Positions 46,701 through 55,700 of a stretch of 64,000 nucleotides of DNA are shown here, piece by piece. This DNA is from Escherichia coli (GTDB taxonomy: Bacteria; Pseudomonadota; Gammaproteobacteria; Enterobacterales; Enterobacteriaceae). A program made the position numbers. Location: assembly GCF_003018255.1 (NCBI RefSeq), contig NZ_CP027440.1; one strand, 5' to 3'. How positions within the stretch are numbered: position 1 is the first letter of the stretch; each line of letters starts with the position of its first letter.

Positions 46701-49700
46701 CGACGGCAGCTGGCAAGTGGAAAATCTGCGGCTGGCGGATATCCGTCTACAAAGCGAAAAATCGCTAACCGATTTCTTTGCGCCATTACGCTCTGTCCCG
46801 TCGTTGCAGATTGGTCGCCTGGAAGTCATCGACGCTCGTTTGCAAGGTCCGGACTGGGCGGTGGCCGACCTCGATCTCAGCTTGCGCAACATGACCTTCA
46901 GTAAAGATGACTGGCAGACACAGGAAGGCAAACTGTCGATGAACGCTAGCGAGTTCATTTATGGTTCGCTGCATTTATTTGACCCGATTATAAACGCGGA
47001 ATTTTCCCCGCAGGGCGTAGCGCTGCGCCAGTTCACCAGCCGCTGGGAAGGGGGTATGGTCAGAACGTCAGGGAGCTGGTTGCGTGACGGGAAAACGTTA
47101 CTCCTTGATGATGCGGCAATTGCCGGGCTGGAATATACCTTGCCAAAAAACTGGCAACAGTTGTGGATGGAAACGACACCCGGTTGGTTAAATAGCCTGC
47201 AACTGAAGAGATTTAGCGCCAGCCGCAATCTGATCATTGATATCGACCCTGACTTCCCGTGGCAGCTCACCGCGCTCGATGGTTACGGTGCCAACCTGAC
47301 GCTGGTTACCGATCATAAATGGGGCGTCTGGAGTGGTTCGGCGAATCTGAATGCCGCCGCCGCGACATTCAATCGTGTTGATGTTCGTCGCCCATCGCTG
47401 GCGCTGACCGCCAACAGCAGCACGGTGAATATCAGCGAACTGAGTGCATTTACTGAAAAAGGCATTCTGGAAGCCACCGCCAGTGTTTCACAAACGCCAC
47501 AACGTCAGACCCATATCAGCCTGAATGGACGCGGTGTGCCGGTGAATATTTTGCAACAGTGGGGATGGCCTGAATTACCGTTGACTGGCGACGGCAATAT
47601 TCAGCTTACTGCCAGTGGCGATATTCAGGCCAATGTCCCGCTGAAACCTACGGTTACCGGGCAATTGCATGCCGTGAATGCCGCAAAGCAGCAAGTGACT
47701 CAAACCATGAATGCGGGCGTAGTTTCCAGTGGTGAAGTTACGTCGACGGAGCCGGTGCAGTAAAAATAAGGACGCTAGCGGATATCAGCGCTAGCGTTCC
47801 CCGTTATTAGCGCAAAATTCCATACTCACTGCACAATAACCATTTCACCGGTTCATCTTCTTCTATCGCCGGAAAACGTCCTCCCGGCTCAAGAAAATAA
47901 TTATCGTGTTGGTCATCATTTACCATCGAGATTTCCCAGCCGAGAACAAACGCTTTTTCCGCCCAGAAGCGATGATACAGACGCGGCGGCAGGCAAATGC
48001 CCTGCCCCGGCTTTAGCACCAGCGTTTCACCAGGTTTCATGGTACGCCGCTGACCATCAACACTCACGGTAATGACTCGTTGATCATCACAGAGATTGGC
48101 TTCGTTGGCCCAGGCCAACTGCATGCATAAGTCTCCACCGCCCCGATTGAGGATATCTTCCATTTTGTGGGTGTGAAAATGCCAGGGAGTCTGCTGATCT
48201 TGTTGGATCTGCAACATTTTCTCAGCATACGGTTTTGGATATGCCGCCGACCCCAGCGCGCCGTTGCGCATCGTTAGCAGTGTTAGTCCCGTTTGGTTGA
48301 AATCACCACGACCAAAATCGGTGATATCCCAACCGAGCTGTAAGTCGACCACTTCTTGCCAGTTATCCCGTTCCCGCTGCAGCCAGTCATCCACCGTAAA
48401 ATAGGCGAACTCTGGCAAACAAACGCGGAAGGTCTGCGCAATGGCATGTGCTTTATCAATAACATAATTAATTTGTGAACGTTTCATTGGCTTCTCCGTT
48501 GCGCATAGCAAGCCAGGCAGCGCCACGCATTCCGCTACTGTCGCCGTGCTGTGCTTTTACAATGGGAGTGGTGAATTGATCGGTGAAAACCAGTGGAGCG
48601 ACTTCTGCGTTCAGATCGGTGATAAGCAGTTCCACATTCGAAAGCCCGCCGCCGATCACAATCACGCCAGGGTCAACAACATTAACGATGGTTGCCAGCG
48701 TGCGGGCAAGCTGTTGGCGAAAACGTGCCACCTGCTGCATGGCACAAGCATCACCACGTTGTGCCAGGGTGACAATCGCCGCAGGAGTGAGCAAGTTACC
48801 AGTCATCTGTTGATAGCGTTCACTAAAACCGCTGCCGGAAACAAACGACTCCACGCAGTTGTGTTTGCCGCAATAGCAACTGACTGATGGACCATCTTCC
48901 TGCTCCGTATAGCCTGGCAACGTGATATGACCGCATTCGGCAGCATTTCCCCAGGCCCCTATAAACGGTCGTTGCTTGATGGCAATGCCACCGCCGCAGC
49001 CCGTACCAAGCGTAATACCAAATACCACGTCATAATCTTGCCCGGCACCGTCGCAAGCTTCTGATAGCGCGAAACAGTTACCATCATTGGCTATCACCAC
49101 CGGTTGCCCAAGCAATTGCTGCAAATCAGCCTGTAACGCATGACCGTTAATCACCTGAATATTCGCGTTTTTAATCAGGCCAGTGAGTGGCGAGATACTG
49201 CCGGGTAAGGCGATCCCTGTCAGCATCGGTCGTTGAACGTCCCGCCTAATCTGCTCGATAAGCGCCACAACGCATGAGACAAATTGTTGATATGTCGACT
49301 TTTGCGTCGGGCAGCGGTAACGGCGAATCTCCCAGCCATGCGCATCCATGACAACGGCGGCGATTTTGGTCCCACCAATATCCAACCCCAGATAGTGCAT
49401 ATCTCGTTCCTTGTTGCGTAAAAGGCGGGTCACCCCGCCCTTCTGGCTTAGTACAGTGATGCTTTACCGAGCGAACCGAACAGTTTCATTTTGTGGCGAA
49501 TGACTTCCCGCGCCGCGTTAATCGCATCCGGATAGATGACGTTCGGGTCCCACCAGCTCTCTTTAGCGAGAATTTCACGCACTTTCTGGAAATAGGCGTA
49601 TTTCATATCGCTGGAGATATTGATTTTGCCGACGCCGAGCGTAACTGATTCAGCAATCTCCGCGTCCGGGTTTGCCGAACCACCGTGTAGCACCAGCGGA

Positions 49701-52700: not shown

Positions 52701-55700
52701 TAGCAGACATCGGATTGTGCATACTGACTAAAGAGATCAATGATTTTTTGCGGACTCGTCTCAACTAACAATTGTTCTATGATGTCATCATCCGCCAGCG
52801 CGCCCGCGACCTGGGAAAGTAAACGGATATGGGTGGTATTTTGATCTTCAAGACGTACCGCAAATAAAATAATACAGCGCACGCTACTGCCATCCAGCGT
52901 TTCCCAGGGAATATCCTGGCGGGTACGGCCAATTGCCAGCGTAGTATTAATTACCGCAGAAGATTTACCATGCGGGATCGCAATATGATTTTCAAAACCA
53001 GTCGAGCCTTCCGCTTCGCGCTGCCAGACATCTTTAATAAAGGTTTCCCGACAATCGATCGCACCATCTTTTTTGAGAAGATTAGTTAATTCTTCAATCG
53101 CCTCCGCTTTATTCGTTGCTTGCATATCTAAAATAACGCGATTCGTATTCAGGATTTTTGTTATGTCCATTCGTCATACCTCATAAAATTCTGACATTAA
53201 ATTTCAACGACCCGAGATGTCGCATGATGTAATTTTTCCGTAATCACCATTTCAGTGACCCGCTTAATATCGGCATCATTAAAAAAAGCGGTAACATAAG
53301 CGACCGGCATAGTGACTGTAGGCAAATTAATGGTCGAAATAATCAGTTCGATATTGTCAGGCAAAACCTGTGATAAATTCGCTGCTGAAATAACATCAAC
53401 AATCGTCCATTCAGGAAATGCTCGCAGAATACGGCTTTTCAGTAGATGCGAAGTTCCGATTCCGGTTGAACAGACCAGTAATACGCGTTTACGGGCAATT
53501 TGCCGCTCCATCGCAGCCTGAAAATGAACGGTCAGGTAACCTACTTCATCCTCGCTCACTGCATTCTCACCCCAGGTTTTAAATACCTGATTCACCACAT
53601 ATTGCGTCAACCGCCAGACATCCGCTAGTTCTGCTTTAATATCTTCCAACAATGGATTACGGATATGAATACGATAATTTAGTCGGTTAATCAGCGGTTT
53701 AATATGCACCAATAAGCCATCATATAATGCGCTGTCTTCACTAAAATCGCAGTCCACGATGTCACTGAATACCGTAATTAAACGCCAGGTAATCAGACGC
53801 GCTTCATTGCTGGCCTGCATATGTGAAATAATGCTAACATCTTTTTGTCCATCAATCGCCACACCTGATGAAATGATATATTGATAAATAAACCAGACTT
53901 CATCATCGGGCAATGTATGTGCAATTCGTTGTTCTATCTTATGAATCATCTGACTGGCAACATTAAAGATATTTTCATCATATTGCCTGGTTTGTTCTTC
54001 TTCTCTTGATAACGCATTCCCGTGCGTGTTGCGATACATCATAATAAGGATATGAGTAAAAATGTTAACGTAATAAGGTTCTCCCAAAGACCAACTTAAT
54101 TCATTTTCCATATCCAGTAACAATGACTGGACAAATAACACCTCTTCTTCTCCAAAATAATGGACTAATGCTTTATAGCTTCCGGGATCCAGACGTGAAT
54201 ACACGACACCTTGCGGCTCATTATGGTTAATAATGCCGTTAATCAGTAATGCCATTGCCTGTCGGACTTGCCCTTCACTACCTTCAATATGCGTACCACT
54301 TGGACTGCGGATCAACGATAACCCCAACGGCGCAAGCCAGGACTCAATTACTCTCAGGTCATTAACAATAGAGGCTCCGCTGATAAAGTAGCGTTCTGAC
54401 AATTTACTGATCGACGTTTCATTCGGTGTTTCACTTAATAACTGCGACGCTATTTTAACACGCCTGGCATTATTCATTACACCATCAATCTCTTCACATT
54501 CTGCCACCAACAAATGATCAAGATGCAGCAAATCAGCAATATTCTCCGCACTTAACATCACACCCGCGCCAGCACGCTTCTCAACATTTATTCTCCATTG
54601 TCCCAGCCATTGCTCAAGTAAACGTAAATCACGTTGAATGGTTTTTTCCGAAACATTTAAATAACCGGCAATCGTAACAATAGTCGTATATTCCCTTCGA
54701 GGTAAAAGGAATCGTAATAATCTGTTTTGTCGCGAGGTAATCATTTGCATTTTTTACCCTTATCACAGATTAAGAAGCCCCATATGGAAGAGCTTCAGTT
54801 GCCATCTCTGAGGGTAAATATAAAGCAGAATAATTTCACAACAATACTAAAATCTGTCCGTAATCCGGACAGTGATAAAACAAAGCAAGGCGGTTAAGGG
54901 ATATTTTTCAGCACAGATCACATTTTCGTGATGAATAATCGTGATCATGCTCGCAAATACGATGGAAGAAATATTTATTACCAGATGTGAGATTATTTAC
55001 CGGATACGACACAAAACCATTCGTATCCGGCATTCTTCAATAGATTACAACGTAATTGTCAGCGCATTCCCTTGAGGAGTCACCACCAGTCCCTGCTCAC
55101 TTTCAGCCTGCGAACCGCCTTGCAGACCATTTACTTTCACAATATTGCGCAAGCACAGTGTCCAGTTCTTCGCCTCGCCCGTACCAGTCACAGTAATCGT
55201 GTTGCCAGTACGTGCTGCTTTTAAAGTAAAGATCACCGAACCGTCAGCATCGGGCACTTCACAGACGGCTTCATGCCCGTCTTGCAGATTAAAGAGGTGG
55301 AATGCCGTACCTTCGTGCCACGCGTAATCGGGACGTTGATCGTTGTTGCCCAGCGCCAGTAGGGTGTTATCACGCACATAAACGGGCAGACTCAGGAAGC
55401 TGTGCTGCTGTTTATGCCAGCGACTACCGTCGAGTTCATCGTTGTGCCACAGGTGTGTCCAGCGACCTTCCGGCAGGTAGAACTGCACATCGCCCGCTTC
55501 TGTGAACACAGGCGCAACCATCACGTTGTCGCCTAACATATATTGACGGTCAAGGTAATCACAAGCCGGATCGTCCGGGAACTCCATCATCATGGCCCGC
55601 ATCATCGGCGTACCCCGGGCGTTTGCACGTGCAGCTTCACGATACAGATACGGCATCATGCGGCATTTCAGTTGCGTGAAGAAGCGCACCACATCACAGG

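What the first reader, a model, noticed from the sequence alone, without database searches (positions are those of the whole stretch)
47807..54750. Seven-gene PTS/aldolase/kinase/isomerase cluster between yicH and yicI
My recollection of K-12 is that yicH is directly followed by yicI, so this minus-strand operon looks like an accessory insertion. Its content suggests PTS-dependent uptake and cleavage of an unusual ketose or rare hexose, with two paralogous class II aldolases side by side. The substrate cannot be read from sequence.
Basis: partly seen in the sequence, partly recalled or inferred. Interest (0 to 1): 0.5.

Follow-up and report, generated by a model that had tools for sequence, protein, structure and literature searches.

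The report
The known frz sugar operon
This gene cluster is real and is missing from K-12, but it is the already described "frz" sugar-uptake operon of extraintestinal pathogenic E. coli, whose sugar I could not find assigned in any paper I could search, so it is not a new discovery.

Summary
Window 47807-54750 (minus strand) carries a compact operon between yicH and yicI. It has eight genes, not seven: a PRD-type activator, fructose-family PTS IIA, IIB and IIC, two class II aldolase paralogues, a ROK kinase and a cupin D-lyxose/D-mannose-type isomerase.

K-12 has only 52 bp at this site. The cluster is present in 1602 of 5426 complete E. coli genomes.

It is the published frz operon of ExPEC/APEC strain BEN2908 (Rouquet et al. 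2009). The locus, size (7281 vs 7283 bp) and GC content match. The published frz PCR primers match exactly and give the published 843-bp product.

No substrate assignment was found in the searchable literature.

- Regulator, PTS and both aldolases form an invariant six-gene core in 71 species. ROK and cupin are optional add-ons, recruited independently in Firmicutes.
- Both aldolases lack the arginine that binds the 6-phosphate of FBP/TBP. This suggests they cleave ketose 1-monophosphates.
- The operon sits next to yicJI in at least six enterobacterial genera. Absence in K-12 therefore looks like loss, not a recent insertion.

Novelty: already known.

The parts
46054..47763 (+). yicH (AsmA-family protein), the left flank; not part of the operon
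   Evidence: RefSeq annotation of the colinear strain A36. The stop codon TAA lies at 47761-47763.
47772..47797 (-). Terminator-like hairpin (ACGCTAGCG...CGCTAGCGT) followed by a T-run. It ends the operon and replaces the shared yicH/yicI hairpin of frz-negative strains.
   Evidence: Terminator scan; junction alignment with the empty site.
47807..48487 (-). Cupin D-lyxose/D-mannose-family sugar isomerase, 226 aa
   Evidence: NF051472 scores 272 bits, below its cut-off of 350. The protein matches the Z5688 D-lyxose isomerase (PDB 3KMH) at E = 4e-64, with the HFH...E and H metal motif conserved. The gene overlaps the ROK gene by 20 bp.
48468..49400 (-). ROK-family sugar kinase, 310 aa, with no HTH domain
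   Evidence: The best NCBIfam match is the Mak-type fructokinase PRK09557 at 319 bits, below its cut-off of 443. The DIGGT and CxCGxxxC motifs can be read in the translation.
49448..50308 (-). Class II aldolase-family protein 2 (ald2), 286 aa
   Evidence: NF006042 (PRK08185 subfamily) scores 525 bits, above its cut-off of 405. Asp-His, His180 and His208 are kept. The DPR arginine is replaced by Asn (WDPN) in all orthologues examined.
50389..51240 (-). Class II aldolase-family protein 1 (ald1), 283 aa, the more divergent paralogue
   Evidence: No NCBIfam cut-off is reached; the best score is 212 bits. It is 33% identical to ald2. The Zn-ligand histidines are invariant across 12 homologues. There is no DPR arginine and no Ser49 equivalent.
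51252..52343 (-). PTS EIIC, fructose family, 363 aa
   Evidence: TIGR01427 scores 311 bits, above its cut-off of 158.
52368..52682 (-). PTS EIIB, fructose family, 104 aa
   Evidence: TIGR00829 scores 100 bits, above its cut-off of 77. The N-terminal Cys motif VAACTAGIAHTY can be read in the translation.
52700..53170 (-). PTS EIIA, fructose/mannitol type, 156 aa
   Evidence: TIGR00848 scores 127 bits, above its cut-off of 103.5.
53197..54750 (-). PRD-containing Mga/MtlR-type transcriptional regulator, 517 aa, with domains HTH, Mga, PRD, PRD and an EIIB-like domain
   Evidence: Pfam scan. The published frz PCR primers bind inside this gene.
53503..54345 (.). In-silico amplicon of the published frz diagnostic PCR, 843 bp
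   Evidence: Both primers match exactly, at 54326-54345 (-) and 53503-53522 (+). The published product size is 843 bp (PMC6238794).
54751..55044 (-). AT-rich control region (GC 0.37) upstream of the regulator. It contains the conserved palindrome CTGTCCGGAT-TACGGACAG (54854-54872), a conserved box GATCACG...AAATGTGATCTG (54912-54946), and the yicI terminator hairpin (55000-55030).
   Evidence: Alignment with the upstream regions of K. aerogenes and Salmonella Ituri; terminator scan; raw sequence.
55045..57363 (-). yicI (alpha-xylosidase), the right flank. It lies on the same strand, immediately upstream of frz, in 17 of the 29 group-A enterobacterial species examined.

Best explanation
This is the frz operon. 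It is a variably present, eight-gene, PTS-dependent carbohydrate operon that lies between yicI and yicH in about 30% of E. coli genomes.

Shown or directly read:
- One minus-strand unit runs regulator-IIA-IIB-IIC-ald1-ald2-ROK-cupin. It is bounded by an AT-rich control region and a terminator hairpin.
- It matches the published frz locus in position, size, GC content and PCR primers.

Inferred mechanism (my estimate is about 0.35 for the full chain):
1. The PRD/Mga-type regulator activates the operon and is itself controlled by PTS phosphorylation.
2. The fructose-family EIIABC imports an unidentified ketose and phosphorylates it at C1, as FruA does with fructose.
3. The always-paired aldolases cleave this ketose 1-monophosphate directly to DHAP plus a free aldose or aldehyde. 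No second kinase step is needed. This fits the absence of the 6-phosphate-binding arginine in both aldolases.
4. Where present, the cupin isomerase and ROK kinase salvage the free aldose, which would be manno- or lyxo-configured. The isomerase converts it to a ketose and the kinase makes the 6-phosphate.

The fitness and type 1 fimbriae phenotypes come from the literature and were not tested here.
For: Identity as frz:
- BEN2908 genomic region GR27 (yicH..yicI) is 7283 bp with GC 48.67% and is labelled the frz operon. The window's yicH-yicI interval is 7281 bp with GC 48.5%.
- The published frz primers match exactly and give the published 843-bp product.
- Reviews describe frz as a single carbohydrate-metabolism operon of BEN2908.

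Gene functions.

Variable presence: 1602 of 5426 genomes.

Core versus accessory genes: in 71 species-representative loci, regulator + IIABC + ald1 + ald2 is essentially invariant. ald2 follows ald1 in 68 of 71 loci, and the three exceptions lie at or near contig or locus ends. ROK and cupin are present in a mosaic pattern. In low-GC bacteria, a cupin only 24% identical and a ROK only 30% identical to the E. coli proteins, plus a phosphomannose isomerase, have been recruited to the same core.

Monophosphate inference:
- Bona fide FBP and TBP aldolases carry the motif DPR(K/Y)Y. ald2 has WDPN and ald1 has (I/S)EL at that position. The Ser49 equivalent is His in ald2 and Tyr in ald1.
- The corresponding Arg280 and Ser49 of the H. 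pylori enzyme bind the 6-phosphate. This arginine is also lost (Ala257) in sulfofructose-1-phosphate aldolase (PMC10665668).
- YdjI, annotated as an octuluronate-1-phosphate aldolase, also lacks the motif.
- The Zn ligands are invariant in the ald1 family.
Against: - No substrate is known, and I could not read Rouquet et al. 2009 or Reperant et al. 2011. They may contain data that contradict the proposed route.
- Phosphorylation at C1 is an analogy with FruA. Another fructose-family member, MngA, phosphorylates a 6-OH (established knowledge, not tested here).
- Loss of one arginine does not prove that bisphosphates are not bound. Other residues could substitute.
- Free-aldose salvage would imply an unusual substrate, such as a ketose with more than six carbons, which is rare in nature.
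- The cupin and the ROK kinase both score below the NCBIfam equivalog cut-offs, so their specificities are uncertain.
Confidence: 0.85

Rival explanations
1. Classical ketose-bisphosphate route. The PTS delivers a ketose phosphate, the ROK kinase adds the second phosphate, and GatY/KbaY-like aldolases split the 1,6-bisphosphate into DHAP and glyceraldehyde-3-phosphate. The cupin would feed an aldose epimer into the pathway.
For: - The aldolases give their best family matches to FBP and tagatose-bisphosphate aldolase models and to such structures.
- A kinase is encoded in the E. coli operon.
Against: - ROK is absent from 29 of 32 Erwiniaceae/Pectobacteriaceae loci and from 11 Citrobacter-type loci, all of which keep the PTS and both aldolases.
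- Characterised ROK kinases act on unphosphorylated sugars; ketose-1-phosphate kinases belong to the PfkB family (established knowledge).
- Both aldolases lack the conserved 6-phosphate-binding Arg and Ser.
- Neither aldolase reaches an FBP or TBP equivalog cut-off.
Confidence: 0.2
2. Epimerase plus lyase. One of the two aldolase paralogues, probably the divergent ald1, acts as a retro-aldol/aldol C4 or C3 epimerase. It would convert a rare ketose phosphate (tagatose, sorbose or psicose type) into a fructose phosphate that the other paralogue or housekeeping enzymes then process.
For: - Class II aldolases have been reported to have 4-epimerase activity on sugar phosphates (title and abstract of PMC5434028).
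- The two paralogues are always paired but are only 33% identical.
- ald1 has an invariant, atypical loop, GELGHxxDAxxY.
Against: - There is no direct evidence.
- Both proteins keep the full set of Zn ligands, so the sequence does not say which, if either, is an epimerase.
- This reading does not explain why enzymes acting on free sugars (cupin, ROK, PMI) are recruited repeatedly.
Confidence: 0.15
3. Mainly a sensory or regulatory PTS. The operon carries little catabolic flux. Its phosphorylation state or its regulator signals nutrient or oxygen status to other loci, such as the fim switch, and this would explain the published fitness and adhesion phenotypes.
For: - Published phenotypes are pleiotropic: late-stationary-phase and oxygen-restricted survival, growth in serum, and the ON/OFF bias of the fimS switch.
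- No growth substrate is reported in any paper I could search.
Against: - Four enzyme genes with intact catalytic motifs are kept under purifying selection together with the transporter across 71 species, including plant-associated genera that are not ExPEC. This is the signature of a catabolic pathway.
Confidence: 0.1

Closest known systems
frz operon of avian ExPEC strain BEN2908 (Rouquet et al. 2009, J Bacteriol 191:4427; region GR27 in PMC12928451)
   Same: The locus (yicH..yicI), size (7281 vs 7283 bp) and GC content (48.5 vs 48.67%) match, and the diagnostic primers give the published 843-bp amplicon. The gene content agrees with my recollection of the 2009 abstract: three fructose-family PTS subunits, an MgA-family activator, two class II aldolases, a ROK kinase and a cupin.
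   Different: Nothing detectable; this is the same element in another strain. The sampled frz-positive genomes are 97.9-99.5% identical to the window over 47000-55500.
E. coli O157:H7 Z5688 D-lyxose isomerase (PDB 3KMH/3MPB)
   Same: The frz cupin aligns over its full length (E = 4e-64) and keeps the metal-binding His/Glu motif.
   Different: It is a paralogue. It scores 272 bits against the equivalog model NF051472, below the cut-off of 350, so its substrate preference may differ.
gat/aga tagatose-1,6-bisphosphate pathways of K-12 (GatY, KbaY)
   Same: A PTS is coupled to a small type B class II aldolase.
   Different: GatY and KbaY keep the DPR arginine and act on bisphosphates made by a PfkB-family or PfkA kinase. 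The Frz aldolases lack that arginine, come as an invariant pair of paralogues, and have no GatZ/KbaZ-type partner.
YdjI (octuluronate-1-phosphate aldolase of K-12) and SqiA (class II sulfofructose-1-phosphate aldolase)
   Same: These belong to the same protein family, cleave ketose 1-monophosphates, and have lost the 6-phosphate-binding arginine.
   Different: Their substrates reach them through permease-plus-kinase routes, not a PTS. Sequence similarity to the Frz aldolases is only at family level (E about 1e-38 to 1e-49).
Cryptic fructose-like PTS paralogue clusters of K-12 (frv, frw, fry)
   Same: They encode fructose-family EIIA, EIIB and EIIC proteins of unknown substrate, and the frz IIA, IIB and IIC match these models below their cut-offs.
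   Different: As far as I recall, those clusters do not contain the aldolase pair, a ROK kinase or a cupin. This was not tested here.

Membership tests
frz operon (Rouquet et al. 2009) | Located between yicH and yicI | tested here: met
   yicH ends at 47763 and yicI ends at 55045. BEN2908 GR27 is defined as yicH..yicI.
frz operon (Rouquet et al. 2009) | Size and composition of the region | tested here: met
   The window interval is 7281 bp with GC 0.485. BEN2908 GR27 is 7283 bp with GC 48.67%.
frz operon (Rouquet et al. 2009) | Amplified by the published frz diagnostic primers (843 bp) | tested here: met
   Both 20-mers match exactly and are 843 bp apart.
frz operon (Rouquet et al. 2009) | Gene content: three fructose-family PTS subunits, an Mga-family activator, two class II aldolases, a ROK kinase and a cupin | tested here: met
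   The published list is from my memory of the abstract, because the paper could not be opened.
frz operon (Rouquet et al. 2009) | Promotes fitness under stress and the ON orientation of the fim switch | not testable with these tools
   Known from the literature only.
Fructose-family PTS EII | IIA, IIB and IIC each score above the TIGRFAM domain cut-offs | tested here: met
   TIGR00848 scores 127 against a cut-off of 103.5, TIGR00829 scores 100 against 76.85, and TIGR01427 scores 311.5 against 157.55.
Fructose- or tagatose-1,6-bisphosphate aldolase (functional class II type B) | Zn-binding histidines and the catalytic Asp | tested here: met
   LDHG, GTAHG and LHGGS are present in both paralogues and invariant in the ald1 family.
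Fructose- or tagatose-1,6-bisphosphate aldolase (functional class II type B) | 6-phosphate-binding residues (the DPR arginine and the Ser49 equivalent) | tested here: not met
   ald2 has WDPN and His; ald1 has (I/S)EL and Tyr. The roles of these residues are taken from PMC10665668.
Fructose- or tagatose-1,6-bisphosphate aldolase (functional class II type B) | Score above an NCBIfam FBP or TBP equivalog cut-off | tested here: not met
   The best equivalog scores are 212 for ald1 (cut-off 343) and 278 for ald2 (cut-off 423). ald2 passes only the unnamed subfamily NF006042 and the generic TIGR00167 model.
D-lyxose/D-mannose isomerase (NF051472 equivalog) | Score above the curated cut-off | tested here: not met
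   272 bits against a cut-off of 350.
D-lyxose/D-mannose isomerase (NF051472 equivalog) | Cupin metal-ligand motif conserved | tested here: met
   HFHxxxxE and the LYHxFW histidine align with those of 3KMH.
Mak-type fructo(manno)kinase (PRK09557 equivalog) | Score above the curated cut-off | tested here: not met
   318.8 bits against a cut-off of 443. The protein belongs to the ROK family, but its specificity is unassigned.
PRD-containing PTS regulator of the MtlR/LicR/Mga type | HTH and Mga domains, two PRDs and an EIIB-like domain | tested here: met
   Pfam detects HTH_11, Mga, two PRD domains and PTS_IIB.
PRD-containing PTS regulator of the MtlR/LicR/Mga type | C-terminal EIIA-like domain | tested here: not met
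   The protein ends after the EIIB-like domain at 517 aa. A low-GC homologue of 621 aa in the neighbouring system on L010 does carry an EIIA domain.
Mobile genomic island | Integrase, tRNA target, flanking direct repeats or IS elements | tested here: not met
   None is present at the junctions. The only tRNA in the window is selC at 59048. All eight ORFs are metabolic or regulatory.

The most novel reading that the evidence does not exclude
The invariant core (PRD regulator, fructose-family EIIABC and a pair of aldolases that cannot bind a 6-phosphate) defines an uncharacterised PTS-to-aldolase shortcut. An unusual ketose, possibly with more than six carbons, would be taken up as its 1-phosphate and split directly into DHAP and a free manno- or lyxo-configured aldose. 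Different lineages would then salvage that aldose with independently recruited cupin isomerases, ROK kinases or phosphomannose isomerase. The operon would be an old partner of yicJI in Enterobacteriaceae that most E. coli lineages have lost and ExPEC lineages have kept.
Probability: 0.2. Interest if true: 0.5.

Novelty: already known. Interest (0 to 1): 0.2.

Why it matters
frz is a recognised ExPEC/APEC fitness and marker locus, so finding it again adds nothing new in itself. What remains open is its substrate.

The comparative results here narrow that question in three ways:
- the core is a PTS plus two aldolases;
- the aldolase substrates are probably 1-monophosphates;
- enzymes for mannose- or lyxose-type sugars have been recruited to the core repeatedly.

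These results suggest concrete enzyme assays. They also change the evolutionary picture. The operon appears to be an old enterobacterial locus retained by some E. coli lineages, not an island gained by pathogens.

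Tried and rejected
- I tried to open Rouquet et al. 2009 by DOI and by PMC id. It is not held, so the published gene list and any substrate screens rest on secondary citations and on my memory of the abstract.
- Six literature searches for a substrate assignment found none. One review states "fructose transport" without data, and I did not accept it.
- I considered a recent chimeric origin, because the regulator, IIA and IIB have GC 0.41-0.44 while the other five genes have GC 0.50-0.56. I rejected it as an E. coli-specific event because the same gradient is present in Klebsiella and Salmonella, and more weakly in Gibbsiella and Pantoea.
- I looked for a canonical CRP site in the control region. 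Only a conserved half-site-like box, AAATGTGATCT, is present, so no CRP claim is made.
- The promoter scan found fewer sigma-70-like sites than the shuffled controls and none in the control region, so it was not informative.
- I considered that ald1 might be a non-catalytic partner. This is unlikely because its Zn ligands and a distinctive loop are invariant.
- I considered a mobile-element insertion. No supporting feature was found.

Full report
**Observation**

Window 47807-54750 holds a tight run of minus-strand ORFs. RefSeq annotates the colinear region of strain A36 as eight genes:
- a "BglG family" regulator (window 53197-54750)
- PTS IIA (52700-53170)
- PTS IIB (52368-52682)
- PTS IIC (51252-52343)
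- a class II aldolase (50389-51240, here called ald1)
- a ketose-bisphosphate aldolase (49448-50308, ald2)
- a ROK protein (48468-49400)
- a D-lyxose/D-mannose-family isomerase (47807-48487)

Family searches confirm each assignment. IIA, IIB and IIC all exceed the fructose-family TIGRFAM cut-offs. The regulator has HTH, Mga, two PRD domains and an EIIB-like domain. The cupin aligns along its full length with the Z5688 D-lyxose isomerase structure and keeps the metal motif. The two aldolases are 33% identical to each other.

**Variable presence**

K-12 MG1655 has 52 bp between yicH and yicI, and so does NCTC9064. A megablast of window 47000-55500 finds the whole segment in 1602 of 5426 complete E. 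coli genomes. In the sampled rows of the remaining genomes only the yicH and yicI flanks match.

**Identity**

This is the frz operon.
- The BEN2908 genome paper lists genomic region GR27 as yicH..yicI, 7283 bp, GC 48.67%, "frz operon (Rouquet 2009)". The window's yicH-yicI interval is 7281 bp with GC 48.5%.
- The published frz diagnostic primers (PMC6238794) match the window exactly at 54326-54345 (-) and 53503-53522 (+). This gives the published 843-bp product, which lies inside the regulator gene.
- Reviews describe frz as a single operon that promotes survival under oxygen and nutrient restriction, growth in serum and gut, and the ON state of the type 1 fimbriae switch. It is enriched in virulent ExPEC/APEC.

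I could not open the 2009 paper itself. No paper in the searchable library assigns a substrate.

**Junctions**

Homology with the empty site ends a few bases after the yicH stop codon. It resumes at the yicI terminator hairpin (55000-55030), so about 7.2 kb is extra. A new hairpin followed by a T-run (47772-47797) ends the operon. There is no integrase, IS element, direct repeat or tRNA at the site. The only tRNA in the window is selC at 59048.

**Comparative genomics**

ald1 homologues occur widely in Enterobacterales. A scan of one genome per species returned 71 loci. I took a census of these by tblastn with the window's proteins. The loci fall into three groups by ald1 identity to the window protein.

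- **Group A, 29 species, ald1 at least 70% identical** (a second Escherichia species, Citrobacter, Klebsiella, Kosakonia, Phytobacter, Superficieibacter, Buttiauxella, Izhakiella, Mangrovibacter). The regulator and IIABC are present in 29 of 29. ald2 follows ald1 in 28 of 29, and the exception is a truncated locus. Twelve have ROK and cupin, 11 have cupin only and 5 have ROK only. yicI lies immediately upstream on the same strand in 17, and convergent yicH lies downstream in 19.
- **Group B, 32 species, 55-65% identical** (Pantoea, Erwinia, Pectobacterium, Brenneria and others). All have the six-gene core, 3 have ROK and none has the cupin. The operon is never near yicI or yicH.
- **Group C, 10 species, below 50% identical** (Firmicutes and Fusobacteria). 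Eight keep the PTS genes and the regulator upstream, and eight keep ald2. A short cupin or a different ROK is sometimes added.

One metagenomic contig with GC 0.34 carries the core plus a short cupin, a ROK and a phosphomannose isomerase. Its cupin is 24% and its ROK 30% identical to the E. coli proteins, whereas its IIC is 75% and its ald2 70% identical. The accessory enzymes were therefore recruited independently to the same core.

**Insertion or loss?**

Frz protein identities fall in step with those of the flanking genes across genera:

| Genus | YicI | IIC | ald2 | regulator |
|---|---|---|---|---|
| Citrobacter | 89% | 96% | 92% | 77% |
| Klebsiella | 87% | 95% | 90% | 72% |
| Mangrovibacter | 82% | 92% | 86% | 63% |

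Taken with the conserved position and the lack of mobility features, this suggests the operon has long resided next to yicJI in Enterobacteriaceae. Its absence from K-12 is better explained by loss than by a recent ExPEC-specific insertion. Transfer by homologous recombination through the flanks is not excluded. The Salmonella Ituri arrangement differs, with frz upstream of yicI and no yicJ.

**Mechanism**

The shown facts are gene order, domain content and intact catalytic motifs. The rest is inference.
- Aligned with S. aureus and B. methanolicus FBP aldolases and with KbaY, both Frz aldolases keep the Asp-His pair and the two further Zn histidines. They lack the arginine of the conserved DPR(K/Y)Y motif: ald2 has WDPN and ald1 has (I/S)EL. 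This holds in every orthologue examined. The Ser49 equivalent is His in ald2 and Tyr in ald1.
- In H. pylori FBA, the corresponding Arg280 (from the partner subunit) and Ser49 hold the 6-phosphate. The arginine is likewise replaced (Ala257) in sulfofructose-1-phosphate aldolase (PMC10665668). YdjI, a ketose-1-phosphate aldolase, also lacks the motif.
- FruA-type PTS transporters make 1-phosphates, and ROK kinases act on free sugars (established knowledge). The kinase is also dispensable in most species.

The simplest pathway for the core is therefore ketose uptake as the 1-phosphate, followed by direct cleavage to DHAP plus a free aldose or aldehyde. The cupin, ROK and, in one lineage, phosphomannose isomerase would salvage a manno- or lyxo-configured product. 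I put this full chain at about 0.35.

The rivals are the classical bisphosphate route (0.2), an epimerase-plus-lyase division of labour between the paralogues (0.15; compare PMC5434028), and a mainly sensory role (0.1).

**Regulation**

The 294-bp control region (GC 0.37) contains two elements conserved in E. coli, K. aerogenes and Salmonella. One is a perfect palindrome, CTGTCCGGAT-TACGGACAG (54854-54872), just upstream of a conserved TTGTTG-16 nt-TATATT. The other is a box, GATCACG...AAATGTGATCTG (54912-54946). These are candidate regulator and promoter sites. None has been tested.

**Verdict**

The feature is real and was described accurately apart from the gene count. It is the well-known frz operon, so its novelty is "already known" and its interest is low. 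The residual value lies in the unsolved substrate and in the constraints derived here.

Noticed in passing
window 52368-54750 versus 47807-52343: There is a sharp composition break inside the operon. The regulator, IIA and IIB have GC 0.41-0.44 (GC3 0.34-0.41), while IIC through the cupin have GC 0.50-0.56 (GC3 0.52-0.59). The same gradient is present in the Klebsiella and Salmonella copies and is weaker in Gibbsiella and Pantoea, so it is old. IIB, IIC and ald2 are 69-79% identical to proteins of low-GC Sebaldella and of a metagenomic contig with GC 0.34, which hints at ancient cross-phylum transfer.
   Followed up: partly
window 54854-54872 and 54912-54946: A perfect palindrome, CTGTCCGGAT-TACGGACAG, and a GATCACG...AAATGTGATCTG box upstream of the regulator gene are conserved in E. 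coli, K. aerogenes and Salmonella Ituri. They are candidate operator or promoter elements. The terminator scan also flags the palindrome as terminator-like.
   Followed up: partly
window 59048-61299: tRNA-Sec (selC) lies at 59048-59142. It is followed by a RhuM-family 'virulence' gene (59195-60232) and a hypothetical gene (60802-61299), where K-12 has yicT and setC. This small selC-linked islet is present in 834 of 5426 E. coli genomes.
   Followed up: partly
window 48468-48487: The ROK and cupin genes overlap by 20 bp, which suggests translational coupling. The homologous genes in K. aerogenes and Salmonella overlap by 4 bp.
   Followed up: no
L010 771-14300 (metagenomic contig, GC 0.34): Two fructose-type PTS-aldolase systems sit in tandem. 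The first has a PRD regulator with an EIIA domain, one aldolase and a fused IIABC. The second is a frz-like core followed by a short cupin, a ROK and a type I phosphomannose isomerase. The single aldolase of the first system also lacks the DPR arginine (YEPD).
   Followed up: partly
L003 13503-17671 (Klebsiella aerogenes): Between frz and yicH, K. aerogenes carries an additional RpiR/SIS regulator, a GH4 6-phospho-glycosidase and a PTS EIICB. The yicI-yicH interval therefore accumulates sugar-utilisation modules in other genera too.
   Followed up: no
L006 (Salmonella enterica serovar Ituri): A complete eight-gene frz cluster, 76-96% identical to the E. coli proteins, lies upstream of yicI instead of downstream. 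No yicJ is present and fimbrial or autotransporter genes are on the other side. This is a different arrangement that may reflect transfer or rearrangement.
   Followed up: no
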